Source: Tubiluchus corallicola
Lineage: Eukaryota > Animalia > Priapulida
Assembly: GCA_030141605.1 (NCBI GenBank)
Contig: JAQGDQ010000046.1
Location: forward strand, 62,001 to 126,000
DNA length: 64,000 bases
Reading direction: 5' to 3'
Shown one piece after another: positions 210 through 41,500 of the stretch. Under the pieces are notes generated by a model. The model made no database searches. It saw only the letters and a list, made by a program, of their open reading frames with translations, and was not told where the DNA came from. The translations under genes and the position numbers were made by a program. Numbering within the stretch: the stretch's first letter is position 1; each line of letters begins with the position of its first letter.

Positions 210-15163
<14,954 letters not shown>

Positions 15164-17458: not shown

Positions 17459-17940
17459 TGTAACATCGACTTTTATTGGTGCCCAAATGTTGGCAAGTGT
17501 CCCCGTGCTTACTTGTCCTATGTCCTATGCCAAAATCACGTTCCTGCATCGCAATGCTGTACAACCTATCAACACCGCACACACGCACACATCTACACCA
17601 TATCCAGATTCAACAGAAGGAACCTGAGAGGATTCCTAGCTACTTAACTAGGCAAGATGTGGGAATCCTGTGTAAGCCTGTAGACAGGCCTACTGAGTGA
17701 TAACTGGTTGTTAAACCTGAACATTAATCTCGCGCAGCAAAGTATCATAAGCTCCGGTATGGGGGCACCCGCACTGCCCGTCATACATCCAACAAAAATG
17801 ATTTCCTATAGCGAAAGCACGACAGCATGTGGTCGGATAGAGATAATGCACATTGCTAACGTTCGGGTAGTTACCATGCGATCAGCTGACGGCTGCTTCA
17901 ACCATGGCTCTTTTTTGGTTAGTGTGACGTGTCCACTAAA
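17459..17940 (-). mobile_element. Candidate solo LTR or other GC-richer insertion
   Basis: A ~480-bp segment visibly more GC-rich than its flanks. The minus strand ends ...AATAAAAGTCGATGTTACA (polyA signal plus an LTR-like GTTACA end). The other terminus and a TSD could not be identified. Confidence 0.3.
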
Positions 17941-18499
17941 AATTATAATTTCTTTTTTGCAGATAGCTTGCTGGTTAGTGTGCTGTGGGAAAGTATTCCC
18001 AATAAGTTATTAGTTGATATTCGTGTTTTACTTAATTTACATACAAATGATATTACATACCTAAGTAATACTAGTACTAGTAGTAGTAACTAATATTACT
18101 AGTAATAGTAATTTTTAGGGTCATAATTTTGTTATTGTTTTTTAATTTGGACGTAGGCACAGCCATGCGCCGATTAGACTCTTACGCCATGCAAACTAGT
18201 ATTATGCGTGAGGTCTAGGCATTTGTCAATGATTGGTCGCCCGCTGAATTCAAAGCCAATTGGCAATACACTTAATCTTGCCCCAAATTTACCGTTACAG
18301 CACCACTTATTATATTTTAGTTTATTTTAATTACCATTTTAACCAGGCACGCCGGACTCGACTGTATTTATGTAATATTGTGCCTTTTGTTCTAAACTTG
18401 CTCACTTTAAATAATAAGTAGACTTCTTTTTATTTCATAGAAGTTAATAAAAGAAGTACCGATTTGACTTCCGACCTAAACATTAGACAATTAAATTTT

Positions 18500-21400
18500 A
18501 TGGTGCCTGTAATTTTAACGTCTTTATTTAGGAACTGTTTTGTGTTGCTTCTTATCGACACCGTGGTTGCTGACGTCGTTACTGAACCTCATCTGCATGT
18601 TGATGAATGCTTGTCAGAACCTTGTCTGAATGGCGGCACTTGTTTAGATGGCACAAATGTTTACGTATGTGTATGCCAAATTCATTATACTGGTGTTCAG
18701 TGTGAAACGCATAATGAATGTTTCTCAAGCCCTTGTCGAAATGGAGGGACATGTATTGATGGTAGAAATAAGTATGAGTGCAAATGTCCTCAGGATTACA
18801 CCGGCAAAAACTGTGAATTGCTTATTAAGCCTGGCAGGTGTCCTGAACCAAAAAAATTGGGTGGTGATGACGTGTGTCCTGTTGACTTATGCAATGCTGA
18901 CAGTGACTGCTCAGATGAAGAAAAATGTTGTAAATTTGAAAAGTGTGGACCAGTTTGTGTTACACCTTTATTAACAGTCTGCGAAATTAATCGAGCCAAC
19001 TTCAATTTACAGCACGTTTCCAGTCTATCAAGCAGTGGGTATACAGATCATTATCCACAGTGTATGGCAAATGGTGAGTACCAACGGCATCAATTTGACA
19101 TTAATAATGGTTATTCGTGGTGTGTTAACAAAACTGGTGAAAACATTCCAGGATCAAAGAGGTCATTGTCAGCCCCAATAGCTAACTGTGATGAGCCAAT
19201 CTTACAGGTATGCACCATGTATAATTTGATTTTAGTGTGTTCTATTTGCTAAACTCCTTCGACTTTACTCACTATTAAAGTTTAACATTTTTAATCAATG
19301 CATCCTTGAAAACCAAAACATGTTTTTGGCGTTACAAGAAGTGTGCTTACTATGGCAATACAGTGTCGATATTTTTTATTATTGCAGGAATGTGAATTCA
19401 CAAAGGCTAACTGCCCATTGAAATGTGTTCATGGATTTGAATCTCATCATGATACGCTTTGCCCTTTATGTAAATGTAAACTTTCACCATGTGAACTTGT
19501 TAAATGCCCTGGCTCTACATACTGCAAATTCTTTCACGTAGACTGCGGTCATTTTCATTGCCCAAAACTTGCCAAATGTTCTAAGACTGATAAGCTTGGA
19601 CACTGTCCTTACATTACTGAGCTTAACATGATGCGATGTCCTCCTATTTCATGCAGATATGACACAGACTGTGTAGCAGAGGAAAAATGTTGTTATTTCA
19701 CTGCATGTGGACATACCTGTATCACACCTATTCTAACGGCTTGTCAAATCGAGCAAGTAAATTTTGACCTGAAAAGCTCATCAAGTAACTTCAGTGCTAT
19801 GTTTGGCTTTCATCGACCCCAGTGTCAAAGCAATGGTGAATATAATCCCTCGCAAGTTCACATACATACTGGCGATTCATGGTGCGTTAATAAAACTGAC
19901 GGCTCAGAAATTCCAGGAACTAAACGGAACAATGATCTGCCAGTGGCAGATTGCAATGCATCTTCTACTAATCTGTGTAAATTTAACATAAATGTGTGCC
20001 AAACTAAATGTGAGTATGGATATTTGGTTGATGAGGTCACTTTATGCGCTACTTGTAACTGCAAAGCTTCTCCATGTATGGGGGTTTACTGTGCAAGTTC
20101 ACAGGAGTGTCAACTAAAAGAAGTAATGTGTCGTACCAACAATTGCCCAAAACTTGCAAAATGCCCTCACATAGTCAAACCTGGAATATGTAAATATACA
20201 GATTTGTTTACCAGCAGCAAATGTCCAACTCGTTTGTGTGTTTACGATAATGATTGTCCTGCAGAACTAAAATGTTGCAAGTTTTTAAAATGTGGCAAAG
20301 TTTGTTCTGCTACTGTCTTAGGAGCATGTCATCTCGAGCAAATGAATACTAATAGTCGCATTTTGAGTTCACATCCAGTAAGTGTCGGTGCCTTTCTTCC
20401 TCAATGTTACAGTAATGGTACGTATAAAAGCACACAAATTCATGACAGCTTTGGTTATTTGTGGTGTGCTAATGAAACAGGTCATGCTGTGCCTGGAACA
20501 AAGCGGCTTGCTGCCGAAAGTAACTTTTGCACACATTCAGCTGTTTTGGGACAGCTTAGTTGTGAACTAAGCTTAGAAGACTGTAAAAAGAAATGCCCTT
20601 TTGGATACAAAACTGATAACATGACTCTGTGTCCAATTTGCGATTGTAAACCATCTCCTTGTAATGGTGTTCAATGCCCAGGTCTACAAGAATGTCATTT
20701 GATTAGTGCTGAGTGCTCTGATGACCATTTTTGCCCTAAACTTGCAAAATGTACAGACCTTTATTTAAACGACAATGGCACTTGCATTGATATGAAAAAT
20801 GCCACACATACCGAATGTCCAAGCAAACTCTGTGCTAGTAATGCTGATTGTCAGACTGGTCAAGAGTGTTGTCATTTGTTAGGCTGTAATAGCATGTGTG
20901 CTGCTAAGCTATCATTATGTCAGAGAGAACAAGCAATTGTTGATTTGAAATTGTCAAGTGTCAATCCAGCACTTAAAGGTATTTACCGCCCGCGCTGTCA
21001 AAATAATGGTGACTACCAACCTTTACAGTTTCTTAACAGCACTGGCACAAGCTATTCATGGTGTGTTACTCCAGAAGGTAAGCCAATTTATAAAACATTA
21101 ACACAGTCAGCTTACAGAGACTGTGCATCAGTGCAAAATAAACCTGGAATCTGTCAGAATTCTACCGCATTTCTAAAAAGAAACTGCCCCCATCGGTCAT
21201 GCAGAAGAGATTATGACTGCCTAGCAGAAGAAAAATGTTGTGATTTCGACAATTGCGGGAAAGTTTGTATTACTCCAGTATTAACTGCATGTCAAATTGA
21301 ACAAGCAAATTATAATTTGGAAATGTCTGACAGTAATTCAAACTCATTTGTTGCTTTTCATCCTCTGTGTACTGGCAGTGGTGAATATCAACCCATCCAG

Positions 21401-24400
21401 TATGACCCAAAGGACAATAGCTTATGGTGTGTTTCTCAAGATGGTCAGCCAGTTCCAGGTACTAAGAGATTTCCTCTTTCTAATCCAATAACATGTAAAG
21501 CTGCGATAGAATGTGAGGGTCAAAAGAGTAAGTGTCAAAGAAAGTGTGCATATGGACATAAACTTAATAATAAAACATTTTGCCCTACATGCGAATGTAA
21601 ACCATCTCCATGCAAACACATTAAATGCCCCGGTATTCTAAAGTGTGAAATTCTGCACTTGGATTGTGGCTCAGCTTTTTGCCCTAAATTAGCAAAGTGT
21701 GTAAAAACAAAAAGTTCTGGTGTGTGCCCTGAATCAAGGGAATTTCATGAAAATGAATGTCCGGTTAATAAATGCAATTCAGATTACGATTGTCCATTTA
21801 ATAAAAAATGTTGCAGCTTTGAAGACTGTGGAAGAATCTGTTCTATTCCTGTGTTGGACGCATGCAGAATTGATCAAATAAATGCAGAACTGGTAAATTC
21901 TAAAATTCGTTTACCTCAGTGCACATCTAGTGGAGACTACTTACCCATACAGTTTGACGAAACTTATAGGTACTCATTTTGTGTTAACCAAGCTGGAAGT
22001 CCTATTCCCGGCACAAAGCACTATAAAGATAAGTTACCTACAGTTGACTGCTATGCCATAATGGAAAAAATAGGGCATCATCTCATATCTCTAAATACTG
22101 AAACTAAAAAATGCCCTCCACAGGCATGCCGTTACATCCGCAATAAGGCTGCAGCAAACAGCTCAAAAAACTGCAGTGATTACATTTATAACAGTACAAG
22201 TTGTAAGCAATCTTATAATGCTAGATCTGAGACAGGGGTAGAGCAATGCCACTTAAATTTGTGTAACAATACTTACTCTTTCTCAACTACAAACAGATTA
22301 TATGAATGTAGGAAAAATTACTGTCCTTTAAAATGCATTTATGGGTATGCAGTCCACAGTGAAACTCTTTGTCCTATGTGTCAGTGTAAGCCTTCGCCAT
22401 GTGAAGGTGTTGTGTGCTCTGATTCTCAAGTTTGCCATGCTGTGGACATAGATTGTGGAATGGAAATTTGTCCAAAATTAGCAAAATGTATTTTAAAACA
22501 GTGGTTTCATTTAAAAAGTATTGGATGCTCAACTCATATTTGCAAGAAAACTGGTAAGTGGAAAACTTGGATGACTTCTTGCCAGATAAGTCAGAAAAAT
22601 GCAGACTTGTGCCAGGTGACTCACTCAGGTTTTGGAGAAATGTACCATCCTCAATGTACAAAATTAGGTGAATATGAAAAGAGACAGTGGGATGCAACCA
22701 GAAGTTTTTCTTGGTGTGTTACCAGCAATGGCATTGAAATTCCAGGAACACTGCGACATAAAGACGAGAAACCTGCTGACTGCTACGCAATTGGGGAAAA
22801 AGAGGGTCTATGTCATGGCTTTGGTGAATTTAAAAATGCTAAATGTCCACAGTTGATGTGTAGTAGCGATAGTGATTGTCCGTTTGACGAAAAATGTTGC
22901 AATTTTGAAAAATGTGGGCAAGTTTGTGTCAGTCCTGTACGAGAACTAAATAGGCGGGGTATTTGTTATGATCCTAGTTACTATGAAAATGTCACAGTGT
23001 GTCCAACTCAGTCATGCAAAACTGATAATGACTGTGAAGCAGAGAAAAAGTGCTGCCCTTTTACTGCATGTGGAAATGTTTGCACTGCGGCTTTGATGGC
23101 AACTGTGAGCAAACCTGGGGCATGCTTAGACAATAATGAATTTGCCAAAAAAGAGTGCCCGACATCATCCTGTACTGTTGACATCGACTGCCCATTGGAT
23201 AAAAAGTGCTGTCAATTTGAAAAATGTGGAAGAGTGTGCTCTGACCCACTGTTACTGCAAAATGAATCAATCATTTGTCCAAATCCAAAGATGTTCATCA
23301 ATAGCCAATGCCCAGCTGAGACATGTAAAAATGATAGTGACTGCACGTTAAGTAAAAAGTGTTGCCACTTTGATGTGTGTGGACAAGTTTGTTCGAGTGT
23401 TGATTTTGTTCTAAATAAGCCAGGACATTGTTACATACTTAACAAAAATGATGCCCAGAAGTGTATAAGTTTACCTTGCCAGTCTGATGCCGAATGCCCA
23501 GGTGATAAAAAATGTTGTTTTTTTCCAGATTGTGGAAAATCCTGCTCCAAACCAGTACACTTGTCAATACAAAAATCAGGTATTTGCCCAAACACGTTTA
23601 AAGGTCATAAATGTCCTAACCAGAAATGTAGTGATGACATCGATTGCAAAGGAAAGGAGAAATGTTGTTATTTTCTGAACTGTGGTTACGTTTGTTACTT
23701 GCCAATTATTTCAGGTTTGCAAGTATGTAATGTTAGCACCGGCGATTGTCAGGTGAATTGCACTCATGGGTATATTATTGATAATGAATCTATGTGTCCC
23801 ACATGTAAGTGTAAACCTTCACCCTGTGATGTTATTCACTGTCCAGATAGGCAGGACTGCGAACTGATGACCATTGACTGCGAAAGTGACTTCTGCCCTA
23901 AACTTGCTAAGTGTGTGGAAAAAAGTAAACCGGGAAAGTGTCCTTCTCGTTCTCTCTTTGACATAAAGTTTTGCCCACACCAGCTTTGTCAATCAGACAG
24001 TGATTGCCCAAGAGAAGAAAAGTGTTGCCAGCTAGATGTATGTGGATTGGTGTGTCTTACTCCAAAATTAACAAATTGTCAAATAGAACAAGCTAACATA
24101 AATTTGTATTTGCTTAGCATGTCAACGGATGTTATAAAACCTCATTTTCCCAGCTGTTTTATTAATGGTGAATATAAGCCGCTGCAATATAACATCGCTG
24201 CAGGTTATTCGTGGTGTATTAACAAAGACGGCTTTGCAATCCCGGGTACAAAACGGCTTCTTGGATCATTGACTCTTGATTGTGATGTATTTACAAGTAA
24301 AGCAGGGATATGCCATAATGATATAGAACTTCAAAAAAACAAGTGTCCTCGTTTTTCATGTAGCAGTGACTACGATTGTCCAAATTCTGAAAAATGCTGT

Positions 24401-27400
24401 TTGACTAAGACATGTGGTTTTATTTGTTATCCTCCAATATTTTATGAATCAAAACCAGGAGTTTGCTATGACTCACGACATTTCGATGCACTTTACTGTC
24501 CAACAGAATTGTGTAATAATGATTTTGATTGCCGTGCTTCTGAAAAATGCTGCATGTTTTTGGAATGTGGCAGTGTATGCTTTCCACCTGCTTTGCCTAT
24601 AACCAAACCGGGAAATTACCAAAATCCAAAAAACATTACACATTACACACTAAATAGATCTAAACCTGGAATATGTCACCACCCAAACACGTTTAATGCC
24701 AGAAATTGTCCCAGCGTATCTTGTGAAAATGATTACAACTGTCCTGCAGGAGATAAATGTTGTTTTTATGATGCATGTGGAACTGTTTGTTCAGCACCTT
24801 TATTATCAGCAAACAAGCCAGGTGTATGTCATCATTCAAAGTTATTTAAATACAAAGATTGTCCACCTGTGCCATGCTACACTGACATAGAGTGTCCTTC
24901 AGATGAAAAGTGTTGTTATTTTGAAAGATGTGAAACTGTGTGTTACACACCAATAGTATCTATAACTAAACCCGGTGTTTGTCCTGAAATACTTGGTTAT
25001 ATCATGTGTCCCAATGAATCATGTAGTGATGATATCGATTGTCTGGAAAACAAGAAGTGCTGTTACACCATATCTTGTGGAAATGTGTGCTTAACACCAA
25101 ATGAAAGGAATTCTGTTGCATGCAAAGACTGCCACTTAAACTGTGTTTATGGATATGAAATTGATTTTGAGACTTTATGTCCAATCTGTAACTGTAAAGC
25201 TTCTCCATGTGCAAATGTGCAGTGTCCTGGAACGCAGCAGTGCAGAACAATAGACATGGAGTGTGGCTCCCATTTTTGCCCAAAACTTGCCCAATGCATG
25301 AAAACAAATAAACCAGGAAAATGCCCAACTTACTATGCTTATGACAGACATACATGTCCAAATCAGTTATGTAGTATTGACGATGACTGTCCAATGGAAG
25401 AAAAATGCTGTTATTTTGAACCATGTGGAAGTGTGTGCTCAACACCAGTATTATCAGCATGTCAGATAGAGCAAGTAAACTACAATCTGAAAAAATTTGG
25501 TAGTGAACAAATAAATACAGAAAACACTCAACCGCAGTGCTTAAGCAATGGTGCGTATAGTCCAGAGCAGTCTGATATGAGTACAGGTTACTCGTGGTGT
25601 GTAACTCAAGATGGAAATCCTATTCCAGGAACGAAAAATTCGACAAACACTTTACGGCCTAACTGTCACGAAGTGGAGCAAAAAGCTGGAGCATGTTATG
25701 ATTTAAATACAACAGAAATAGAAGTGTGTCCTTTTCACTCCTGTAAAGGAGATTATGATTGTTTGGCTGAGGAGAAATGCTGTTACTTTTTAACATGTGG
25801 CCGAGTTTGTTTCAAACCATTGTTACAAATTAACAAGCCAGGAATTTGTCCTCATTCCAGTCACTTCAATGTTAGCACATGCCCCCTGCAGAATTGCAGC
25901 AATGATATCTTCTGTCCTGCTGAGCAAAAGTGTTGCAGATTTATTGATTGCGGAAATGTTTGTACTACACCTATTGTGTCTAGAAACAAGCCTGGTTTGT
26001 GTTATGACACTGTTCACTTTGAAAGCAAGCTATGCCCCAAAACAGTATGTCATAATGACATTGACTGTCCACTACAGAAAAAATGTTGTTATAGCAAGAC
26101 ATGTGGACATATTTGCGTCTTACCAAAAAGTTCTGGCAGAAAGAGGGGCTTGTGCTTAAATAGTGATCACTTTGAATATAAAAAATGTCCACACCTGTCA
26201 TGTAGGAATGACAATGACTGTCCAGCTAGTGAAATATGCTGCAACTTTAAAAATTGTGGTAATGTTTGCTCTAAACCAATTTTATCTGTAAATAAGCCAG
26301 GAATTTGTTATGAACCAGATAAATTTCATAATAATGATTGTCCAAAAGTTGCTTGCATGAATGACATTGATTGTCCTTTTGAGGAAAAGTGTTGTCAGTT
26401 CTTAAAATGCGGAAATGTGTGTTTTAAGCCTGTGCTATCTATTAACAAGACTGGTACTTGTCCCATAAGCTTTAGTTGTGAAGAATGTCCTCATCATTCG
26501 TGTGATAATGATATAGACTGCAAAGGTGAGGAAAAATGTTGCAATTTTACATGTTGTGGAAAAACCTGTACTGCTCCAGTCGAAAAAAGTTTTGTAACTT
26601 GTCAAAATAACACAGTAAATTGTCACACGGAATGTATTCATGGATATTCAGTAGATAACGAAACTCTTTGTCCTACTTGTAAGTGTAAAGCTTCCCCTTG
26701 TGAAAATGTAACTTGCACCGGAACACAAATGTGTGAAGAATTAGATGTGCAGTGTGGAAGAAGTTTTTGTCCAAAGCTAGCTAAGTGTTCCAAAGTCACA
26801 CGACCAGGAAAGTGCCCTGACCCTAGTAAAATAATTAGTGGTGGACTGTGTACACATGATACCTGCAGCACAGATGCTGACTGCCCTGCTAATACCAGAT
26901 GTTGCTACACTTCAGCATGTGGCACTGTTTGCATTACTCCAATTTTAACAAGATGTCAGGTAGAGCGAGCCAATATTGATTTTAAGATGAGATTTGGAGG
27001 CCTAGCTTATTTACAGATTTATCGCCCCTTGTGCAAAAATGATGGCATGTATTCACCTTTACAAGTACAGAACAGCAGTAGCTACCGTTGGTGTGTCAGC
27101 CCAGATGGTCAGCCAGTTCCAGGAACAAAGAGACCACTGAGTGCAGTGCCTATTGATTGTGACATTTTACAAGGGAAACCTGGTATTTGTCCAGACTCGT
27201 ATGAGTTTGAGGATGGCAAGTGGCCAAGTCAAACTTGTGCTGCAGATCACGAATGCCCAGGTGATGAAAAATGTTGCAATTTTGCTTCACACAGAAAAAC
27301 TTGTACTCCTGCATTGCTGTCATTGAACAATCCTGGAAGTTGTCCACCTACCAATTACTTTAATGGTAGTTCGTGCCCCAAACAAGCTTGTACAAATGAC

Positions 27401-30400
27401 TTTTACTGCGAAGTTGGCCAAAAATGTTGTCGCTTTATTTCCTGTGGAAATGTTTGTTCACAGCCTATAGAAAATATTAATGAAAGAAGTGTATGTCAGT
27501 TTGAAAATAACATTTCAATATGTCAAAAAACTCAGCCATGTAATAATGATAGTTATTGTACATTTGCACAAAAATGCTGCTTAACTAAAGCTTGTGGAAA
27601 AGTTTGCTTGCCTGTTACACAGCCAGTCAAATTCGGAGTTTGTCCTTATTTTGACAAGTTTCATAACAAAAACTGTCCTAACCATTCATGTAACCATGAT
27701 ATAGAATGTTTAGCAGATAAAAAATGTTGCAAATTTCAAGGCTGTGGAAATGTTTGTTCTGATCCGGTACTTTCTGGAACAAAATCAGGGATTTGTCCTA
27801 ATGACTTTCTTGACTTGAAATGTCCTGAACAGACTTGCAAAAATGATATTGATTGCTTTGGTACTGCAAAATGTTGCAGAACAAAGTTTTGTGGTGCAGT
27901 CTGTCAAGAACCATTGGCAGTTGGTCTGCAAATATGTGACAACAATAATAAAACAGATGGCCATCTGCAATGCATCCATGGATATTTAGTTAATAATGAG
28001 ACACTTTGCCCAGTCGGAGAGTGCCCATTTTCCCCATGCCAAGGTGTTACATGCCCAGCAACTTATCAGTGCAAGTCAGTAGATGTAGGTTGTGGCACCA
28101 GTTTCTGTCCCAAACTGGCAACATGTTCGCGCATCAGTAAACCAGGAAAATGTTTACCAACAAGTAAATTTGATGGTTTAACATGTCAAGGTTTATCATG
28201 CAAAAGAGATGCTGACTGTCCTGAAGAAGAAAAGTGTTGTTATTTTAAAGCTTGTGGAAGAGTGTGTCACACTCCTACTTTAACTTCATGTGAAACTGAA
28301 CAAGCTAATTTCAAATTGCTGTTTTCTTATAATGTCACAACTGCTGACATCTCTCCGCAGTGCCTTGAAAATGGGAACTATAGGTCATTGCAAATTGACA
28401 CTGGTTTGGGATATTCCTGGTGTGTTTCTCAAGAAGGCTATCCTCTTCCTGGAACAAAGAAACAATCAATATTGGAATCCAGAAACTGCACAGAACTAAT
28501 GGTCAAGCCTGGAGTTTGCCATAGTAATCTATTTTTCAAAGATAGTAAATGCTCTAAGCAAAAATGCATTATGGACCATGATTGTGAAGGAATAGAGAAA
28601 TGTTGCACTTCTGCAGCATGTGGTAATGTCTGTGCCACTCCTATCCTATCTGTCAACAAACTGGGTTTGTGTCATGATCCTAAATATTTTAATAACAAGA
28701 AGTGTCCTTCTATGTCTTGTACTAATGACCATAACTGCATGTCAGATTTTAAATGCTGCCACTATGTTGCTTGTGGAAGAGTATGTTCTTCGCCATTGTT
28801 ACTTATGGATAAACCAGGATCATGTTATCATCCTAACACATTAAATGGAAAAGGTTGTCCACGTCTGTCATGTCATAAAGATGATGACTGTCCAGCAAAA
28901 GAAAAATGCTGCCCATTTGATGGATGTGGTAATGTATGTTTTACACCAAATTTAGAAGACAGCAAACAAGGTTTTTGTCCTAATCCTAGTACAATAACAA
29001 ATAGTAAATGTTCAAGTCAGCCATGTGAAACTGATACTGATTGCTTGGGTGATGAGAAATGTTGTCATTTTATGCTGTGTGGAAATATCTGTTCAGCTCC
29101 TGTGTTATCATTTAACAAACCAGGGCTTTGCAACAACTCCCTCATATTTGGCAGTAACAATTGTCCTTCTCAACAGTGTTACAATGATATTGAATGTCCT
29201 GGGGAGCAGAAGTGTTGTTATTCTGAAAATTGTGGAAGCATTTGCTCTACTCCCATTTTGTCGGTGATAAAATCTGGAAGTTGTCCCACTGAACCAGACA
29301 TCACAAACTGTCTTACTCAAAAATGTTCTGATGATATTGAATGCAAGGGAGAAAAGAAGTGTTGCAAGACTGAAGCTTGCGGAAATGTCTGCTCAGACCC
29401 TGTAGCAGCAAACATTCAAAAGTGCAAAATTAATGTAGAAAATTGCCAGAGGAAATGTGTGCATGGCTATGTGATGCATCATGAAACCCTTTGCCCCACT
29501 TGTTGGTGTAAGCCTTCTCCGTGTGAGAAAGTTAAATGTTCTGGTTTACGTACTTGTCAAACAATAGATATGGCTTGTGGCAGCATTTACTGTCCAAAGC
29601 TTGCAAAATGCAAGCATGGCCATGATTCTGACAAATTAGGTGTGTGTTACTCTGCCAATAAGATTATAGCTCCTGACTGCCCAGAAAAGGGTTGCATTAA
29701 TGATACCAGTTGTCCAGCAGAAGAAAAATGCTGCATGTCTAAAGCATGTGGTATGGTATGTTCAGTTCCATCACTAACTAACTGCCAAACTGAGCAGATA
29801 AATGTTGATCTACAGCTGTCAGGCAACAACTCTATGAAATGGTCTATAATATCAGGAAGACATAGACCTCAATGTTTGGAAAATGGACAATATCAATTGA
29901 AGCAATTTCATATTTCAAAAGGATATTCATGGTGTGTCACTACCAAAGGCCAGCCAATTTCAGGAACTAAGCAACCACATCATGCAAAACAAATTGACTG
30001 TGATATGAAAAGCCACAAAATAGGGATTTGTGATGATTTTAATAAATTTAAAGGCAAAAGGTGTCCAAGTCAACTGTGCAAGAAAGATAACGGATGCCCA
30101 GGAGAAGAAAAATGTTGCAGTTTTGAAGGTTGTGGCAAAGTGTGTTTTGCTCCAATATTATCTGCAAACAAACCAGGCCTTTGTCCAGAAGCAGGCTATT
30201 TTAATACAGACAGTTGTCCAACTAAAATATGTAGCAATGATATTTATTGTCCAGCAGAAGAGAAATGTTGTAGATTTGCTGCTTGTGGAAGCGTATGTAC
30301 AACTCCCATTTCAACGGTGAACAAGCCAGGAATATGTCTTTTTCGCCTCAAAATGAAAAAAGAAGAATGTCCCACATACTCTTGCAAAAATGACAATGAC

Positions 30401-32668
30401 TGCCCAACTTTTGAAAAATGTTGCCACTTTAAAGGATGTGGGAAAGTATGTTATGAACCACAGCTTAATGCAACGAAGCGTGGAACTTGTTATAATCCAA
30501 ACAAGCTTAAGAAGGATGCTTGTTCTCCATTAACCTCATGTGAAGCTGACAATGATTGTCCTGGAAATGAAAAATGCTGTTATTTTGAATCATGTGGGTA
30601 TGTTTGTTTTAAGCCCATAATGTCAGTGAACAATCCTGGCATTTGCTTTGATGCCCAAAAATTTGTAGGGAGAAAATGTCCTACCGTTATGTGTGCCAAT
30701 GACATAGACTGCACAAAACATGAAAAATGTTGCCATTTCCAGGGATGCGGGACTGTGTGTTTCAATGTTATTTCTGCAGGTCCAGAAGCGTTTAGTGAAA
30801 AACCAGGAATATGCATTGACACATTTCACAGCAATAACTGTCCCACTCAGAAGTGCAGCAGAGACAGCGATTGTGATGGAGCAGCGAAATGTTGCCAGTC
30901 TGCATCATGTGGTAACATCTGTTCCGTGCCATTGCTATCCAGTTATGAAATCTGTAGGCCTAATACAATTGCTTGTCAGAGGGAATGTCATTATGGGTAC
31001 CTTACACACGACAAAACTCTCTGCCCTACTTGCATTTGCAAAGCATCTCCATGTGAAGGCGTTAAATGCCCATATCTGCAGGAATGTGGAACTATCAATA
31101 TTGAGTGTGGCAGTACATCCTGCACAAAACTAGCAAAGTGTGCTTACCCTCATGGAAATAAACCTGGTAAGTGCCCCACTTCCTGGGAATCTGGTGCCAA
31201 AAGTTGTACAATTCCAGGTAAGTCGTGCAAAATAGATAGTGAATGCCCGGCAGAAGAGAAATGCTGCACACATAAAGATCGGATGGTATGTTTGACTCCA
31301 AAATTAACATCCTGTGAGATTGAACAAGCAAATATTAATCTTCAGCTGTCTCGCACTTTCCATATTTCAAAAGTTGACAATGTTCAATGCATGGATGATG
31401 GGCAGTATGAACCAATACAGTACCATAGCAGCAGTGGCTACTATTGGTGTGTGACAGAGAAAGGTGTTCCAATTCCAGGGACAAAATTATATTTTGAATC
31501 ACCACTTGCTGATTGTAACTCAGCCAGAGAAAATTCCAAAATTTGTATAAATCTGCACAAGCATAGTGACACTCAGTGTGCTAGTCTTAAATGTAGCAAA
31601 GACAGCGATTGTAGATCAGGACAAATGTGTTGCAGGTCGATATCTTGTGGTAGAGTCTGCTCAACTCCAATAAAAGTAGGCCTCCAACTTTGTGACCTTA
31701 ATATTACCGAATGTCAGCAAAAATGTAATAACGGCTATCTAATTAACAGTGAGACTCTTTGCCCTACATGTGAATGTAAGCCTTCTCCTTGTCAATATGT
31801 TGAGTGTAATGACACGCAGCAGTGCAAAACACTGGACTTGCCATGTGGTTCAACATCATGCCCAAAACTCGCAAAGTGTTGTGGAAAAAGCCAAGCACAG
31901 CTTATCAAACCAGGAATTTGTCCTAATTCAAGTACTTTTGAAACTTTTGAGTGCCCACGGCAGAAATGTAATTCCGATTCGATTTGTCCTGCAGAAGAAA
32001 AATGCTGTTTTTTTCTAGCATGTGGCAAAGTATGCGTAACACCCCGCCTAACAGCATGCCAGATTTTGCAAGCAAATTTCAAGCTACATCTTTCTAATGC
32101 TCACTTAAAAGCAACCGCTGTCTACCATCCACAATGTACTGACAGTGGTGACTATGAGCTTATACAATTCAACGGTACCACAGGTGATTCATGGTGTGTT
32201 ACTCCCGAAGGTCACAAAGTGGCAGGCACAAAACTGCCGCTTGAATCAGTGCGTGTGAGCTGTACTGCTTCACTGACATGTAAACCACACATAGAAGAAT
32301 GTCCACATGAATGTGACCATGGCTATAAAACAGATAACGAGACATTATGTCCTACATGCGACTGTAAATTGTCACCTTGTCATGAAATTGTATGCAATGG
32401 CTCACAGAAGTGTGCCTTATTAAATATAGACTGCAGTATGAAAGAATGCCCTTTACTTGCAAAATGTCAATCAACTACTGATGATGTAAATCTCGAAGAA
32501 TTAACAAATGGGATAGCCACACTTGGCACTGTTTGTGTAGGGATCGTTTTTGTTGCAGTGCTTCTGCTTGCATTTGGCTTAATTTATAGACAAAGAAATC
32601 GCCGAAGGAGAGACAGAAACAGAGATGAACATATTGTCTCACTTTATCAATCCGAAACAGGTTTGTGA
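18500..32668 (+). CDS. Giant (~4662 aa) cysteine-rich type I membrane protein: SP-EGF2-[WAP/thyroglobulin-1/antistasin-like/6-Cys module super-repeats]-TM-PDZ-binding tail
   Basis: Exon 1 is 18500-19207 (ATG MVPVILTSLFRNCFVLLLIDTVVA, signal-peptide-like; an upstream exon splicing to the AG at 18531 is an alternative start). A 180-bp phase-0 intron (CAG|gtatgc...ttgcag|GAA) is followed by exon 2, 19388-32668, which is open. Motifs: EGF (DECLSEPCLNGGTC), WAP (KPGxC...CxxDxDCPxxxKCC...CGxxC), thyroglobulin-1 (PQC...G.Y...Q...SWCV...G..IPGT), antistasin-like (CxxxCxxGY..D..TLCPxCxC). TM GIATLGTVCVGIVFVAVLLLAFGLIY, then RQRNRRRR, ending ETGL*. Confidence 0.93.
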
Positions 32669-35599
32669 TTTATGAAATTAGTGTCACACCCCTTTCTAAC
32701 GGAAAGTTATCACCCTGCAGTGGCTCTGAACTACATATTAATGATTATCTAATAGGTTGTTTTGGATAATAGGAACACTATGCCCGTTGCACTATAATTA
32801 ATAGAATATGCATACAATATCCAAGAAATTGGATAGTGGCTGCTTAGTAAAAAGTAGTAACTGCATCCAAAAGCTGACACACTTTGTAGGAAAATCATGT
32901 GACAAGCTGGTGTTAAAAAATGGTAATTTTAAAACAATTAGGGAGTTTCCTGAAGTAGATACTAGTGAATTCTTATTATGCAGAAAATGAATTATGAGGA
33001 AGAAGCTTATATTTGCAATTTTAGAATCTCAATCTCAACTGTTGTTACCAGTAAATGACTTTGTAAGGCATTTAAATGAATGTCTGTAAGTTCTGTATTG
33101 CTTTAGAAATGAAAGGCGTAATAATAATTAATACGCTTTACAGAATTCTCTTTTCCACAAATGCTCTGTTATACAGTCTGAGAGAATGCAAAACCCTACA
33201 GTGTTAATTTCATCAGAAATTTTCGGATTTAATCTTACAAAAAGTTGGAGGACGCATCTTAAATGCATAATCTTAGACAACTGCTCGAAAGACTGCATTT
33301 TTACCAGCATTTAGGAATACCATAGTATTGTCTTTCTATCTGCTCACAAACTTGAAATTACACATTGAAAACTTAAAATAAGTAATAACCAATTAAATGT
33401 GTGCAGTCGACATACTGGGATAGTTATTTGACTCTGTAGTTTGACAAAAGAAGTGCACAACGAGAAACTGCAGATTTCAAAAAAATGTGAATAAATTTTT
33501 CATGTTCGTCTAGCCTAATTAAGTTGCATCTGAAATATCTGGGTGCAACTATACTTCATTATGGAACTAACTGTGTCTTCCTTTATGAACATCATGATAA
33601 TTCTGATTCGTTTGAGTTGTACAAATTTAAAGCGTATTACATGTGATAATATCATTGAACTGAGTAACATTAAGAACTAAGGGAGTAATTTACCTTTATG
33701 TAATTGCAGCAGTCACGAAAACTGTTTCAAAATGAACTCAAACAGTAATCATGTAAAATATTATGGAAATACAATATTAGTATAGTGGTGAATAATCTTG
33801 CTTGATAATGTATTATCAGGTTGATGTTTTGCTGCTAGATATTATTGTATGTACCCTGCCGCTAAAAGTTCTGAAATGATCGCCACTGTCATTTTAATAG
33901 GTGGTGATCTAATTTGCCGGACATGGATGCCTAAGACAGCATATTTTGGAATCAGAGGAACAAGTGACTAAAAAACAATAAGCTTATTTATAAAAATTGA
34001 TGTACATATGCATTAATAACAGTCACTTGTGAATACTGCTGTAAATAAGTGTCTCACTGCTACTGCATGTTTAAGAATGGTATACTAAGATGCCTAACTT
34101 TAGGTTTGTCACTGTTGTGTTTCATTTGTTATCGATTCACTTATTATTATTATGCTTATCATGTGTTTCTAATCAGTCAGCTTTGATCAACTCATATCTT
34201 TGCGGGCTAAAGAAACCACAGATTAACCAAGTGAAACCAGTGTTTGTTGTCATGTTTGTATACATAGAAGCTTACTGTGAAATGTTAAACAAAGAATTAA
34301 TAACGGTAGTCAAGCAGATTTTTAAATTCTTCAGTAGTTTAATGTTGAAACTTTTGATGTATTTGATAATTTATTACTCATTGGTCAGCATACTGCATTG
34401 TTGTTAATGTGTTTCTGTAACTTGTAAAGTGAATTGTAAGTACTGCTTTGTTTTTTCCTGCATTCCTCAACAGCTATTTAATAAAACTGCATAAAGTATT
34501 GCTGATATAAGTCTCTAACTGTAACTGAAGCAACAATTGCCAGTAGCATAATAATCTTGCTTGCTTACTTTGTTTTTTCTTATTCGTGATTACCATTCTA
34601 AACTTACAAGTCTGTGGCGACCGAGGAACCAGGGTTGCTGAAATGTGGCAACCACTTTCGCTATCATCCTACTGCTGATTAATGAATAATAAAATATCAC
34701 AGATTTTTAAAAAATGGATGACTACTGAATTCAGTTTGTGTTGATTTGCCCTAGGATTTTTGCCAAAACATCAAAGAAAATTATGCAACTTATTTAACCT
34801 AAAATGGACGTGTTGTTATTTTGAAGGTAGCTCGAATCTTACATTTCAAGGTATTAAATGCTTATTTAAAACTGACAGAACCGCAAAAAGATGTAATAGA
34901 AATCCAGTAAAACCTTTGCTTTATCGGTACCGACTACAGATATCTTGCAAGTAATTTCACTTGTTAATTAGCACTGACAAAGTATTTAAAATATGACAGT
35001 AACACAGAAAAATGACTGCTTGTTTATCAAGCACAAAGTTTAAAATCTTTAAAACTCAGAAACTGAAAATGATGGGACAGTATTTATAAAATGCCAATTC
35101 AAAGACTGCCTTGCATACAGGAAATGAGACTTATAACACAAAAACATGTCAGAGTTGAAAAGTGATTAGTGCATTCACAACCAGAGACAAAATATGAAAA
35201 AGGATAAAAAAGCCAGTTAAGAATACTACAGAAAAGTTTTATTGTTAAAAAGTCGTATCCTGTATGGAACATGATACAAACCTGAAAAATGAGTATGAAG
35301 CAGAAGATGCAGTTGCTGATTGGACAAAATAGAATTCCCACATAATTTATCTAAGTGCTGAGCCACTAAAGCTGCAAGAAATCTACAAAAACATGTGAAA
35401 GTCATTTCCAATACTACCTTGTATACAATGCCCATTGTAACTTGTATACTGCAACTTTACACAAACGTGTAAAAGAGCAGCATACAAAGATGTTATAAAT
35501 AAAGGAAAAACTTCACAAATAGATAAAAACTTTCCACGTCAGTGTATCAAGATCGTCCTTTGATTCCTCTACTTGTCGTGTTGATGATTCCCAAGGCAA

Positions 35600-38500
35600 C
35601 TACTCTTCGATTAATTTTTCTTCTTCCTTAATAAAGAATTCAACAATTTCCTCCTCCAAATCTTCTACATTGCTCTCCAGAGTATCAGTATTCACACCTG
35701 CAAAAATAAAGGTACAACTTTATTTCAAAATGCAGAACTGCTATAAAATGCCACCTGGGAGAAAACTGTTTGATAAGGCAACTAAATGGCCATCTTCAGA
35801 GAACGATCAAGTAGAATACCAGTTGTCATAATAAGTTGCATACCAGTTGTCATAATAAGCATGTTTTGAAATTGGTAAAATAAAAAGCCGAAAATGTGTA
35901 CCTAATACACAGATCTGCAGACTAGATTAGAGTTAAGTTAATTCAAACAATCAACAAACTGATTACTTGAACAAGCAAGGACTGTTTAGAGTATAGTCAA
36001 CAGAATTGTTAGCATTATATCATAGCAAATCATCGAGAAAAATTGATGTATATCAATTTATCAACTACTGTTATAATTACTGAAACATAATCACCTCTGC
36101 GCATCTCTAAGCGCTTTTCAAAATTATTGTTAAAATTTTCTTCGGCTTTCTTCTTAAAGGCATTGAATTCCTTCATCAGAGCTTGACGTTTTTCAATCAA
36201 TTCCTGTGAAAGAAATTCAGTTTACTCAAAAAATTATCTGCTGTTCAGTACAATAAACTACTTAACAAAACATCTATTAAATATACAACTCTATTCGGTG
36301 CTTGCACGAATCCAGATTGAATACAGCAGCTTAGAGAAAAAAAGTTTACTACTACAAAATAAAACAGTTACCACCAAACAACAACAAATACAATACAGAC
36401 CTAGCAAAAATGTCTATTTTATTCATCGTACCTTTGATGCTTTAGACTGTGACATTTTATCTTTCAATTCAAACTGAGCCTGGTACTTCTTCAAATTCTT
36501 CTTAATATCCTTCGTCTGCTGAGTTTTAAGTAATGAAGGTGGACGTGGCCGCCATAACAACTGGCAGAATCGCTCTGGACTATGTCGTTGCAACAATTTG
36601 CCTTGAAAAGTCCAGATCCAATAAGCATTGTCCACCTAATGTGAAAACACAAAAAAAAAACAGATTTGGTTACTTACTTTAAAAAAGCAACAATAAAATT
36701 CTGTAAATACTATACACCAAATAAAAATATTTTACTGCCATTTCTTAAGTTCTACATATTCTGCTCTTTCACTCAAGTGTACACTGCAACACCATTTGAT
36801 TAAAAAAATTAAGTTACAGCAGAATCTAAACTAAATCTGGTATATTCAACTAAGAGAATGATTTGTACCTTATGGGTCCACCAGCTAACCATGGAAATAA
36901 CGTAGCGTCCAGTCGGATCCCATTCTACATCTGTAGCCATGTAATGTTCTGCTTGATTCATTATTGTCATGTCATGAGTGTCAACAAACTCAAGAACGCC
37001 ATTCATACTGCGGAGACCAGCAAGCACACAAAACTGTCCAGTGGGAGACCAAAACAGCTTGTTAGCAGCTCGCTTCTCAAAAGTTTCTGTAATCATGTCA
37101 AACAAATGCTTGCAGAAAATCAAATAATATAAAATAATGCATAAACTGTAATTTTACTATTACAGAAAAAACCAGTAAACATGAAAAACCCGTTGAACAA
37201 ATGTAAAAATGTTTTACATATTATGACTGAGGCACACAACTTTTCAGTTGTTACACTAATGTACTGGTTTCAAACACACGCAGGCAGTATTGTACATGAT
37301 AATGTTTAAATTTCTAGTTTGATGTAAATATCTTTCCTAAAAAAATCATGGTAAAAAATTATTAATCGAAATGTTTTTTTTCCAAAATCTTATACTACAT
37401 GGCACAAAAAATCATTGTAATTTGCAGGCAAGAAACGATATTGACTGTAATTTCAATTTTACTATCACACGTGAAGCAGTATTTGAAAGTGAAATTACAG
37501 TTTTTTTTATAAAACTTGAAAAAGGTGTGGAGTTCTCACTTTCAGCTAGGGCAAAGTAAATTTGGATTTCTTACTTCATGTTCTAAATAAAAGTCAACAG
37601 ATATTCAGGTATTATGCTTTTTGTGTGGCAAATAATTCAAGTCAAAAACTTGCAAATACCAATGTCCCATAATAACTTACTGTCTAGCGTAACTTTAGCA
37701 CCAGACTTGATGGCATAAAAGCTGACACTTATGCGCGGTGACTCTCCATGGATTATTCCAAATTTGTTTCCAACAGGTTCCCAGGCAAACTCAACAATGG
37801 GCTCTGAAATAAAATGCAAAAAACATATCCTGTAGCATCACTGACAAAGAAGTTCCAGAATTAAATTTACGTTAATACAATATTCACTTCTATCAATCTT
37901 AGAATAATTTATAGCTGTAAATGGCGGAACCAGCATGCGGAATCTGATGTGTGAAATAAAATTCATAGTTCATAGCATTATAAACTCTATGCTATCCAGT
38001 GCCGCTAAAGAAGCATAAGTAATGTTAGTCTAATAAAATTTTATGAAACAGGCTTCTGAACAGTTAATGGTTCACTAATTCAGAAATCCTCTCACTGTTA
38101 GTTTGCAAGCAAAGAATTATGTGAAATTTAACATTGAAGATAATTTCACATCACATGCTTACCCTTTTGCTCTACAACATCAACAGGAATTTGCTTCTCT
38201 CTGACGTGGAAGATCTCAAAATTGTAATAAAGACCCTACAACAAAAATGGCTTATTTGGAAAGCTCATGTTTGAAGATGACAGTAATTCTTTTCTGTTCT
38301 TATGGCACAACTAAAAAGCCTGAGAAAAAACTAACAAAATTTCCTATATTGTACTTAGTTGAGACTTAAAAACATAATTCTCGGCTACCCAGTATTAAAA
38401 TTCTTATAATAAGACATTCGATGGACAATTCTGTAAAACTTACAAAAACACACTTGCATTTACAAAAAATCGGCGTAACTGTATAATTTACACAAAAGAA

Positions 38501-41500
38501 AAATAATTCTATTTTTAACCTACAGCAAACTTTGATTCGCCTTTTTCATCTTTACGAATTTTAGAGTATCGGTCTACTTTGACAGCTAAGTAGTCGCCAG
38601 TCTTTTGCCAAAACATTTTGCTGTCGCAGACATTAAAGAGGTTCTTCACACGCAGTTCTCTCCTGTAAAGAAAGAAATCACCATTGGAAGTGGATGATGG
38701 TTATTAATCTAATGTTTTAACTCTATGCAAGCTGGTGCATGTCAGTGTCAATTACATGCATGGACAATCAGGTTGTAACAACATTTTAATAGTGACTATT
38801 ATTTTTAACTTTAACATTATGTAACTTTACAATAAGTTGCCAAACTCTAACAAATACTAAATGATAAAATTAATTACTATTTCTAACCACTAAGGTATTA
38901 CACAACAATATGAATACTGGATCGGAAAATGTTTTAGCAAAAATTTTATCTAGCAGTTACTTACAAATAACCTAAAAAGGCTACGTGAGAAACAACTTAT
39001 CGTGCTGGATGGCAATAAATTAGTTCCTACACTACATAACGAGGCAAAAATAGGCCCTCAAAAGTTTCTAAACAAATCTTACACAATCGGCATACAGACT
39101 TTAAAGATCATACTGGAAGTTCTAAAGTCTTTGTAACAAAACCAGACTCTTCTCATGCTAACTAAATTAATTACACCACAAAGACAAAGACTACTGCCAA
39201 TTCATTCTTGCATTTGGCAGACTTTGAAGAAAAGGCACCCTTGTAAGGATTTTAAAAATAAATTGGAAACAACAGTGTCTTTCTTTGACTATTTTATTTA
39301 TGGGTGCTTCAATTTCTAAAATAAAAAATATATCACCATGCCCAAGTAGCTAGCGTTACAAAGAGATAAGTACTGCAACAAAAGAGTGAAGTTTCGCTAC
39401 ATTATCAAAAAACAGCAAAATAAAAAAATGAATAAAGGCACACACATACCGGCTTGGTATTTCTACGAGTACAACACGAGCGGGTACATTGTCTTCTTCG
39501 GCTACCCAATAGGCGACTATATTGTCTGACGGCGACCATGTGAAATCCCGTAACTTGGGAATCTTTAAACTTTTCTTATCCAAAAGGCCAAATGACTGTA
39601 AAAAATATATGAGATTCCACTATTTAATAATGAGGCACAGTTTCAAACATTTTTGCTACTGGCAAAAATCAAATACATAGCAAGAGTGACTGTAGGTCTC
39701 TCTCTGCACCCCATTATTCTGGAAAATAACTTCTCATAAGTCAAAACTATACCTAAAGCTTATTTGTCTGGATATAGTGCTCAAGGATGAATGTGCTAAA
39801 ACTACTAATGCTGTGTGAATTCATGATAGCTTGTGAATAATACTGCTGGCAAAATCTCCAATGAGTTTACCAAGTGCTTTAGCTCACAATCAAAATTTTG
39901 TAAAAGTAATCAACGTAAAACTGCTTAAATATAGAAAGCACCTTGCCTAATAAGAAAACAAACACAGGTACCAAAAGAACATAATGTGGCGGCAATGTCA
40001 GACTTTGGTATTATAAAACACAAACACTTACAGGAGTTTCATATATAGACAGCATATCCTGGCCCATTCGAGCGAAGTATTTTCCATCTGGACTCCACCT
40101 GTAAAAAACAAATAACTTACATTTTGCAGCTAATGGTACTGAATGAAGGGTACTAATAGATGTGGATTGGGAAATATGCAATGACAGTTATGCACTGAAA
40201 CAAGTAGCAAATTGCATTGGAAACTGTGCACCAGCAGATATAACAGCAGCAAAAACAATGATGGTAACAAAGTTAACAGCAACAGTAGCAATGACTATAG
40301 TGGCAACAGGAAAAATAAAAGCAGTTTTATCTTTTCATATAACTTTTCATATTTAAAACATCAATTAAAATCCTAAAATTATGCAACTTCCAGAAAATGT
40401 TACGCAAATTTCACTTTGTGTTTCTGATACACATTTGACTGTGCATAGTACGTAATCTCGATGTGCGGGTTTCTTTCAGTGTGAATTTCTTGGTGCGTAG
40501 TTGACGGTGTATAACTACTAGTGCACAATTACCACACACCCATTTTCAGTTCCTAATTTATTAAAGCAATATTCATAAGCAGAAGCAGCAGCACAACCTC
40601 ATATACATAACTCAGCAAAATAATTAACCTTACTTGAAAACTGGCCATGCAGTAGCAGTTTCGCAATGAAATCCACGCTTTTTCTGACCAGTTCGAATGT
40701 TCCATATGATAATGGCTTGAGGGTCGTCCTTATTATCAGGCAAAGGACTAAATGTAACTATGTATCTGCAAAGCAAAGCAAAAATTGTTAATGATATTTT
40801 GCAAGTATTACTACAATGAAATAAAGAAATTAAAATGTTTTGCCGAAAAAACTCATAAGCCAGCCAATCAGTCAGGTTATTTCACCCAACATCCTGCTCT
40901 TTTCACAAGTTTTCTTGGAGGAGCTTACAATGAGGCTTGAAAGCAAACACCTGCCAAAAATGGCGAGATGCCCAACTGCACATGTTTACGTGTCTGTATG
41001 TCCACCCACAACATATTTCAAAAACATATAATCAAAATATAATTAAATTAAACTGCTGCATTTCTATTTGCAGAGTTCAATGTTACTTAGGAAACTTACA
41101 CAGTTCACATATCAGCCCACAAATTATCTTAAAAATAAGTATGAGTAAAATAAAATTCTAAATGATTTTTCTTAAAATTCATTAGAATGCTATGTTACTG
41201 AAGGCAAAGGTCGACGTCACAGGACAAAACGGTAAATTTTTCATTCAGCAAGATCACCGAACAAAGTGGTAAATCTTTCATTAATTACCTGTCTATGCAG
41301 CAACAATTAAATGAATTGAAAGTTGTAAATTCCTTTATTTAAAAACACAACAAATTTATTTCTTTAGTACTTTCATCAGGATGCTGACTGGCATTTGGAT
41401 GACAAAATTGGAATGATTTAGCAGCACGTCCCAGTTCAACTCTTTAAGAAATTCTTTAAATCAAAACTCGTAATTCTTTAAGAATTTCTGATGTTGTGGA

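What the first reader, a model, noticed from the sequence alone, without database searches (positions are those of the whole stretch)
18500..32668. Giant membrane-tethered WAP/thyroglobulin/antistasin array (~4,660 aa): candidate undescribed cell-surface system
Seen: by manual parsing, a signal-like N-terminus, 2 EGF, ~48 WAP, 14 thyroglobulin type-1, 13 antistasin-like and 13 6-Cys modules, one TM helix and a short tail. Established: WAP and antistasin folds occur in serine-protease inhibitors and antimicrobial or biomineral proteins; thyroglobulin-1 domains occur in cathepsin inhibitors and IGF-binding proteins. Invertebrate proteins mixing these folds exist, but characterised WAP proteins mostly have one to a few copies and are secreted. 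Inference: dozens of divergent copies on one anchored chain could form a surface 'protease shield', a multivalent ligand-capture coat, or a rigid disulfide stalk holding the EGF pair far from the membrane (cuticle, egg coat, shell or tube, adhesion). I cannot confirm it is absent from databases.
Basis: partly seen in the sequence, partly recalled or inferred. Interest (0 to 1): 0.88.

Follow-up and report, generated by a model that had tools for sequence, protein, structure and literature searches.

The report
Giant membrane-anchored WAP-repeat protein
This animal gene encodes one intact chain of about 4,660 amino acids built from 90 small cysteine-rich modules with a predicted membrane anchor; it is a greatly expanded relative of an unstudied coral-to-insect protein group and likely works as a long structural coat or tether on the cell surface rather than as a protease blocker.

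Summary
The ORF is intact and the counts are exact: 2 EGF, 48 WAP, 14 thyroglobulin-1, 13 antistasin-like and 13 six-Cys modules, one C-terminal hydrophobic helix and a 26-residue tail. One correction: an unnamed 77%-identical ortholog fragment points to a start in a mini-exon at 17904, not at 18500. The 'undescribed system' claim is only partly right. The same antistasin/6-Cys/WAP/thyroglobulin cassette with a C-terminal anchor occurs in 15 of the 150 best database hits, and named relatives come from insects, chelicerates, myriapods, nematodes and a hemichordate; a coral protein shares the domains and anchor. These relatives are 1,000-2,250 aa with at most 9 WAPs in those scanned, and I found no functional study of them. 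New here: twice the length, six 446-510 aa super-repeats on one 13.3-kb exon, an EGF pair, and no Kunitz or Lustrin domains. 0 of 48 WAPs have the elafin-type inhibitory spacing and 0 of 13 antistasins have Arg at P1. That favours a structural surface or matrix rod over a protease shield, though the thyroglobulin modules may still inhibit cathepsins. Expression and function are untested.

The parts
17904..17917 (+). Likely first coding mini-exon: start codon and first residues of the signal peptide, phase-2 donor at 17918
   Evidence: Translates MALFWLV then stop; ortholog fragment P0087 begins MVLFWLV; found independently as a donor candidate; 2 of 2000 shuffles give such a match. No RNA support.
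18532..19207 (+). Exon: rest of signal peptide, 2 EGF, WAP 1, thyroglobulin-1 module 1
   Evidence: Pyrimidine-rich acceptor ends at 18531; identity with P0087 (77% over 237 columns) starts at this boundary and both read into the same downstream intron; Pfam.
18599..18817 (+). Two tandem EGF repeats at the distal tip, Notch-like in pattern
   Evidence: Pfam EGF E 3.8e-13, hEGF 7.8e-11. O-fucose, O-glucose and beta-hydroxylation consensus read by eye from recalled patterns.
19208..19387 (+). 180-nt phase-0 GT-AG intron
   Evidence: Sequence; the frame stops at 19252 if unspliced.
19388..32668 (+). 13,281-nt terminal coding exon, 4,426 codons plus stop
19388..22054 (+). Four compact antistasin/6-Cys/WAP/thyroglobulin cassettes (about 195 aa) plus one extra WAP-thyroglobulin pair
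22055..22579 (+). Two decayed, still in-frame module remnants (aa 1126-1205 and 1271-1300, 8 stray Cys) around cassette 5
   Evidence: no out-of-frame module found.
22295..30946 (+). Six super-repeats of 475, 461, 497, 446, 495 and 510 aa: one cassette plus a run of 5-6 WAP domains
   Evidence: the last WAP of all 6 runs has the short 8-residue C1-C2 spacing, seen in 7 of 48 WAPs overall.
30947..32470 (+). Two more cassettes and a final antistasin/6-Cys pair next to the membrane
32513..32587 (+). Predicted single transmembrane helix
   Evidence: KD peak 2.92; run X1 contig 32085-33134 matches with 0 differences (may be the source sample).
32588..32668 (+). 26-residue basic cytoplasmic tail ending ETGL, like a class I PDZ-binding motif (pattern recalled); a possible splice donor at 32661 leaves the last residues unsure

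Best explanation
This is an intact gene for a 4,656-aa, cysteine-rich, predicted single-pass membrane protein that likely serves as a long, glycosylated, disulfide-stiffened structural tether or coat on an epithelial surface, built from protease-inhibitor folds whose serine-protease loops appear disarmed. Shown: the ORF, the module order, homology of the four-module cassette to anchored proteins of other animals, the expansion by super-repeat duplication, the non-inhibitory WAP spacing, 53 N-glycosylation sequons. Inferred: secretion and anchoring; a beads-on-a-string rod of very roughly 200-250 nm if extended (module lengths assumed); many weak WAP contacts with matrix, mineral or mucus; a few unpaired cysteines that could cross-link; an EGF pair at the tip as a contact site; a tail that could hold a PDZ scaffold. 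The 14 thyroglobulin modules may still restrain cathepsins locally.
For: WAP C1-C2 spacing is 10, 8 or 11 and C2-C3 is 4 in 44 of 48; none has 6/8, and Pro follows C2 in 37 of 48. Elafin has 6/8. PMC11408880 says 3, 4 or 7 residues between C2 and C3 may leave too little room for an inhibitory site (passages). Antistasin P1: Arg in 0 of 13, Lys in 1, mostly Gln/Pro/His, against Arg in 18 of 41 pattern-matched modules of relatives (P1 position recalled). No Kunitz domain, while 7 of 11 scanned TY-WAP-antistasin relatives with an anchor have them. Limpet shell matrix holds proteins with 8 and 11 WAPs in runs split by antistasin domains, one a major constituent by mass spectrometry (PMC3374290, passages). 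C. elegans MLT-11 (thyroglobulin, lustrin, Kunitz) sits in and patterns the apical matrix (PMC12642537, passages). Folds look maintained: paired Cys losses in WAP 2853 and antistasin 3086 (pairing recalled), ortholog 79-86% identical in each domain, cassette model pLDDT 79.8.
Against: No localisation or activity data for this protein or for any anchored relative. All 14 thyroglobulin modules lack the L2 disulfide, but so does saxiphilin domain 2, and saxiphilin's tandem domains bind two protease molecules (PMC10889554); saxiphilin is the best structural match (Z 10.7, rmsd 2.1, 72 aligned). The spacing rule comes from human WAP domains and allows 'reduced or inconsistent' activity. Anchored relatives also have short C2-C3 loops, mostly 3-7, so that feature is not special to the giant. 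A secreted antistasin/WAP protein is called a serine protease inhibitor in echinoderms (PMC11310086, passage). pTM of the cassette is only 0.52, so rigidity is not shown. In MLT-11 the thyroglobulin and lustrin domains were dispensable. One X1 contig of depth 2.4 shows a 1-base deletion at 26396, probably an error.
Confidence: 0.5

Rival explanations
1. Multivalent protease shield: the anchored chain carries active inhibitors (thyroglobulin-1 modules against cathepsins, some antistasin or WAP modules against serine proteases) and protects a surface from proteolysis.
For: All three main folds occur in inhibitors; the thyroglobulin module matches saxiphilin and the p41 fragment (Z 10.7 and 9.5); a domain without the L2 disulfide can bind protease; one antistasin has Lys at P1; relatives carry Kunitz domains.
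Against: 0 of 48 WAPs with 6/8 spacing; 0 of 13 antistasins with Arg at P1; no Kunitz; the expansion favoured WAP runs (34 of 48 WAPs lie in the six runs), the module least likely to inhibit.
Confidence: 0.25
2. Long-reach receptor or adhesion molecule: the repeats are a spacer that holds the EGF pair beyond the glycocalyx to contact a partner cell or ligand, signalling or anchoring through the short tail.
For: EGF pair at the tip, absent from the 16 relatives other than P0087 scanned; conserved in the ortholog (29 of 36 and 31 of 37 residues); tail ends in a PDZ-like motif (pattern recalled).
Against: The EGFs are no more conserved than the neighbouring WAP (37 of 47) and thyroglobulin module (60 of 74); no DSL or other ligand domain in Pfam; tail end unsure; a mere spacer would not need four kinds of module.
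Confidence: 0.13
3. Antimicrobial or growth-factor-binding coat: WAP modules act like omwaprin or crustins, or thyroglobulin modules bind IGF-like ligands.
For: Short C2-C3 spacing as in omwaprin (3); IGFBP C-domains match the thyroglobulin module (Z 8.9).
Against: Whole chain is near neutral (pI 6.9); no IGFBP N-domain in Pfam; tethering limits access to microbes.
Confidence: 0.08
4. Not a working gene: assembly artefact or silent relic.
For: Two decayed modules; one low-depth contig with a 1-base deletion.
Against: 4,426 stop-free codons at about 38% GC; divergent repeats; paired Cys losses; a 77%-identical ortholog exon; 43 of 67 laid X1 contigs are 99% or more alike.
Confidence: 0.03

Closest known systems
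Uncharacterised anchored thyroglobulin-1/WAP/antistasin(/Lustrin/Kunitz) proteins of arthropods and nematodes, e.g. Photinus XP_031347773.1, Ornithodoros XP_064489867.1, Centruroides XP_023226834.1, Chamberlinius GAB6024412.1, Auanema CAI4227197.1; the Thy-WAP-Atn group of PMC3407033
   Same: Contiguous antistasin/6-Cys/WAP/thyroglobulin cassette (hhalign 99.2%, E 3.6e-19, 176 columns, 32% identity), same Cys spacing and 7-8 residue WAP-TY linker, C-terminal TM.
   Different: They are 1,300-2,250 aa with at most 9 WAP, 7 TY and 4 antistasin by Pfam, carry Lustrin and mostly Kunitz domains, mostly 6-Cys TY, often Arg at P1, and no EGF. The giant has 48 WAP, only 4-Cys TY, no Kunitz or Lustrin, 2 EGF and a short stalk-free join to the membrane.
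Acropora 'thyroglobulin-like' XP_029189769.2 and Glandiceps XP_077995049.1
   Same: WAP, thyroglobulin-1 and antistasin on one chain with a C-terminal TM, no Kunitz or Lustrin.
   Different: 1,000-1,300 aa, TY-dominated, 1-4 WAP, one antistasin, no EGF.
Long WAP-only arrays: Glandiceps XP_077983615.1 (20 WAP + TM), Gouania 'papilin-like' XP_028309692.1 (32 WAP)
   Same: Tens of WAP domains on one chain, one of them anchored.
   Different: WAP only; the Glandiceps repeats are near-identical, while the giant's average 40% identity and are interleaved with three other modules.
Lottia shell-matrix WAP/antistasin proteins Lotgi1|201804 and Lotgi1|239125; perlwapin
   Same: Runs of WAP domains separated by antistasin domains, found in an extracellular matrix (PMC3374290).
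   Different: 85-103 kDa, 8-11 WAP; the passages seen mention no thyroglobulin domain or anchor. Sequences were not compared here.
Elafin and SLPI (inhibitory WAP proteins)
   Same: Four-disulfide core fold (Z 5.5 and 5.3).
   Different: 6/8 spacing absent in all 48 copies; 1-2 domains, secreted.

Membership tests
Anchored TY1/WAP/antistasin cassette proteins (coral to arthropods) | Contiguous antistasin/6-Cys/WAP/thyroglobulin-1 cassette | tested here: met
   Single-stretch profile matches 8-188 in firefly protein, 96.5 bits; hhalign 99.2%.
Anchored TY1/WAP/antistasin cassette proteins (coral to arthropods) | N-terminal signal and one C-terminal TM with short tail | tested here: met
   Hydropathy only.
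Arthropod/nematode subgroup | Lustrin-type Cys repeats and usually Kunitz domains | tested here: not met
   None in the giant; Lustrin in 9 of 9 anchored arthropod, nematode or unnamed members scanned, Kunitz in 7 of 9. Not filed in this subgroup.
Arthropod/nematode subgroup | Orthology by gene tree or synteny | not tested
   No genome held; no cross-species tree was built.
Elafin/SLPI-type inhibitory WAP | Eight-Cys four-disulfide core | tested here: met
   Pfam WAP 47 stretches; 45 of 48 copies have exactly 8 Cys in the counted span; fold Z 5.5 to elafin.
Elafin/SLPI-type inhibitory WAP | C1-x6-C2-x8-C3 binding loop | tested here: not met
   0 of 48.
Antistasin inhibitors | Six-Cys antistasin pattern | tested here: met
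   Pfam Antistasin in 12 of 13 modules at E<=10, best 2.5e-5; the first scored 15.2 bits, below the 21.2 cut-off; weak bdellastasin match E 0.053.
Antistasin inhibitors | Basic P1 residue after the second Cys (position recalled) | tested here: not met
   Arg 0 of 13, Lys 1 of 13.
Antistasin inhibitors | Antistasin fold by structure search | tested here: inconclusive
   Model pLDDT 80, pTM 0.45.
Thyropins (thyroglobulin-1 inhibitors) | Thyroglobulin-1 fold with WCV core | tested here: met
   Pfam 14 stretches; Z 10.7 saxiphilin, 9.5 p41.
Thyropins (thyroglobulin-1 inhibitors) | Three disulfides (subtype 1A, as in p41) | tested here: not met
   0 of 14 have the L2 Cys pair; not required for protease binding.
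Thyropins (thyroglobulin-1 inhibitors) | Measured cathepsin inhibition | not testable with these tools
   Needs assay.
Follistatin-N-like / CREMP modules (for the 6-Cys module) | C-x4-C-x5-C hairpin module | tested here: inconclusive
   Weak sequence hits to CREMP (E 3.8) and bdellastasin N-part; BM-40 FS domain E 5.7.

The most novel reading that the evidence does not exclude
A lineage has turned an old membrane-anchored protease-inhibitor cassette into a 0.5-MDa 'cysteine mucin': a roughly 200-nm disulfide rod of disarmed inhibitor folds, with a Notch-like EGF pair at its tip and a PDZ-type tail, that builds or tethers a surface structure (cuticle, shell, tube or adhesive layer) and has paralogs forming a new coat-protein family.
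Probability: 0.25. Interest if true: 0.7.

Novelty: new variant of a known kind. Interest (0 to 1): 0.43.

Why it matters
It is the longest WAP array seen in these searches (48, against 32 in a WAP-only fish protein and at most 9 in the scanned cassette relatives) and a clean case of repeat expansion going along with loss of inhibitor signatures. It also draws attention to a widespread membrane-anchored family for which the paper searches here found no functional study; the fly, worm or tick members can be tested directly. If the rod reading is right, it shows how inhibitor folds become structural surface material.

Tried and rejected
No genome is held, so paralogs, synteny and the species could not be checked. 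Expression: no RNA holder listed; run X1 reads through the intron donor like DNA, and X2 gave only short partial matches; no spliced joint was seen. Parts without contig cover prove nothing. Full-length search found 2 of 232 candidates, both Asterias alpha-2-macroglobulin-type proteins with WAP/TY, 25-26% identity, not orthologs. The word-based alignment search found 2 of 2,033 candidates and missed the family that the full HMM scan found, so word-based blanks are weak. The exon search returned only P0087, 1 of 8 candidates. JGI metagenomes: 76 pattern matches, none confirmed. The ESM Atlas did not complete. Fold searches of the antistasin/6-Cys model gave no match with Z>=2 and none with E<=0.001; this shows neither a new nor a different fold. 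The WAP tree was mostly unresolved (1 of 45 branches starred) and is not used; positional identity within runs is only slightly raised (0.45 vs 0.40 for last and second WAPs, none for first). Hidden frameshifts or out-of-frame modules: none. Recent duplication or assembly collapse rejected. Paper searches with no paper holding all terms; one search was swamped by thyroid papers; Novinec 2006 (Mol Biol Evol) is not held and may already describe this architecture class. That fly CG5639 is the fly member is recalled, not tested; one search lists 4 papers with one mention each, and the one read labels it 'serpin' in a table (PMC3348937). Earlier scan findings: none.
Full report
Observation. The window is intron-rich animal DNA of 35.5% GC. 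A stop-free frame runs from 19310 to 32668, and a shorter one from 18422 to 19252. Pfam gives EGF x2, WAP 47 stretches and Thyroglobulin_1 14 stretches. Antistasin is weak in Pfam: none in the whole-exon scan, 12 of 13 excised modules at E<=10, best 2.5e-5. The strongest hydrophobic segment is aa 4617-4635, followed by a basic stretch and a 26-residue tail.

It is a real gene, not an artefact. The 25 longest of 59 DNA self-matches are 64-75% identical; WAP pairs average 40% and reach at most 62%. Contigs of run X1 match at 99% or more in 43 of 67 cases, including 18582-19242 and 32085-33134 with no differences; this run may be the source sample, so it is not independent. One contig of depth 2.4 lacks one base at 26396. 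Two modules lost both partners of a disulfide (WAP at 2853, antistasin at 3086; pairings recalled), as expected if free thiols are selected against. An unnamed Logan protein, P0087, is 77% identical to the EGF-WAP-TY exon.

Gene model. Identity with P0087 starts at the AG acceptor at 18531, not at the ATG at 18500. P0087 begins MVLFWLV; the window reads MALFWLV then stop at 17904, with a good start context and a donor at 17918. Shuffles of the 3.4-kb upstream region gave such a match in 2 of 2,000. The likely model is three coding exons, 4,656 aa. No RNA confirms it. The tail ends in ETGL, like a class I PDZ motif (recalled), but a possible donor at 32661 leaves the end unsure.

Architecture. 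After the EGF pair comes a four-module cassette (antistasin, six-Cys, WAP, TY; about 190 aa; 11 full copies aligned, 41-48% identical to the first). In the middle, six super-repeats of 446-510 aa add a run of 5-6 WAPs to each cassette. The last WAP of all six runs has the short C1-C2 spacing of 8, found in 7 of 48 WAPs, which points to duplication of whole super-repeats; the WAP tree itself was unresolved. AlphaFold2 of one cassette gave pLDDT 79.8, pTM 0.52. The TY part matches saxiphilin (Z 10.7, rmsd 2.1, 72 aligned) and p41 (Z 9.5), the WAP part elafin (Z 5.5). The six-Cys module has only weak hints of follistatin-N, CREMP and the N-part of bdellastasin.

Relatives. A profile of the cassette against 1.84 billion representatives gave 1,800 hits at E<=0.001. 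Scanning the best 150 with profiles made from the giant, 15 have WAP, TY and antistasin or six-Cys modules plus a C-terminal hydrophobic segment (only rows of 450 aa or more, or with those modules, were printed). I looked up names for 20 of the 150: firefly, thrips, tick, scorpion, centipede, millipede, horseshoe crab, three nematodes, a hemichordate, an annelid, abalone and a fish; five were unnamed. A coral 'thyroglobulin-like' protein has the same domains and anchor. The whole cassette aligns without a break to a firefly protein (99.2%, E 3.6e-19, 176 columns), and Cys spacing and linkers agree. PMC3407033 (passages and supplementary file 3) already lists Thy-WAP-antistasin proteins shared by arthropods and states that no arthropod thyropin had been characterised then. 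So the anchored design is old and widespread. What is special here is the size (4,656 against at most about 2,250 aa), 48 WAPs against at most 9 in those scanned, the EGF pair, and the lack of Kunitz and Lustrin domains. No cassette-bearing protein of comparable length was found. WAP-only arrays of 32 (fish) and 20 plus TM (hemichordate) exist. Orthology to the arthropod gene was not tested, so I file it as a variant that shares the cassette.

How it likely works. Elafin has C1-x6-C2-x8-C3, and PMC11408880 (passages) ties antiprotease activity to that spacing. Here C2-C3 is 4 in 44 of 48 copies and never 8. The antistasin P1 position (recalled) is never Arg and once Lys in 13 copies, but Arg in 18 of 41 pattern-matched modules of 17 relatives, of which two gave no match; these counts are not independent of each other. 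All 14 TY modules lack the L2 disulfide, unlike most in relatives. That does not exclude inhibition: saxiphilin domain 2 lacks it too and the tandem domains bind two proteases (PMC10889554, passages). The expansion favoured the WAP runs. With 53 sequons and assumed module lengths the chain could span about 210-260 nm. Empirical parallels: limpet shell matrix holds proteins with 8 and 11 WAPs split by antistasin domains (PMC3374290, passages), and MLT-11 patterns the worm's apical matrix, though its TY and lustrin domains were dispensable (PMC12642537, passages). I put a structural tether or coat at 0.5, a protease shield at 0.25, a long-reach receptor at 0.13, antimicrobial or ligand binding at 0.08, and a dead gene at 0.03. 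An echinoderm antistasin/WAP protein is named a serine protease inhibitor (PMC11310086, passage), which counts for the shield.

What is in print. Ten searches found no paper on a protein of this size or on the function of the anchored family. The library lacks most subscription journals, including the 2006 survey of TY domains, which I saw only as a reference entry; supplements of the other papers were not read.

Verdict. Observation confirmed; start codon corrected; novelty is a new, extreme variant of a known but unstudied kind. Interest 0.43.

Noticed in passing
window 186-15163 (+): Multi-exon TSC2/tuberin-like gene ending about 2.7 kb upstream of the likely start (Pfam Tuberin and Rap_GAP).
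   Followed up: partly
window about 35600-49741 (-): Multi-exon eIF3b gene, tail to tail with the giant gene (match to mammalian eIF3b E 2.8e-35).
   Followed up: partly
window 28297, 30251, 30570, 30611 (loose ends of run X1 contigs): Loose ends read by eye as WAP or WAP-TY linker sequence not found in this protein, hinting at paralogs elsewhere in the genome.
   Followed up: no
window 3203-3367 and 12397-12618 (+): Two introns or exons of the TSC2-like gene share a near-identical translated stretch of about 25 residues, a small duplicated element.
   Followed up: no
window 17963-17973 (+): An 11-nt stretch between a good acceptor and a copy of the same donor as at 17918; a possible micro-exon, but it would give a stop if joined to the mini-exon.
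   Followed up: partly
window about 13990-14280: Long (CT)n/(GT)n microsatellite in a TSC2 intron.
   Followed up: no
window 50012-51107 (-), 42440-42916 (-), 61900-63089 (-): Retrotransposon remnants: RT_RNaseH_2 at 50658-50777; the others look LINE-like by eye and had no Pfam hit.
   Followed up: partly
P0001/P0002 (Asterias rubens): Alpha-2-macroglobulin-type protein extended with EGF, Kunitz, WAP and TY modules: another long WAP/TY mosaic.
   Followed up: no
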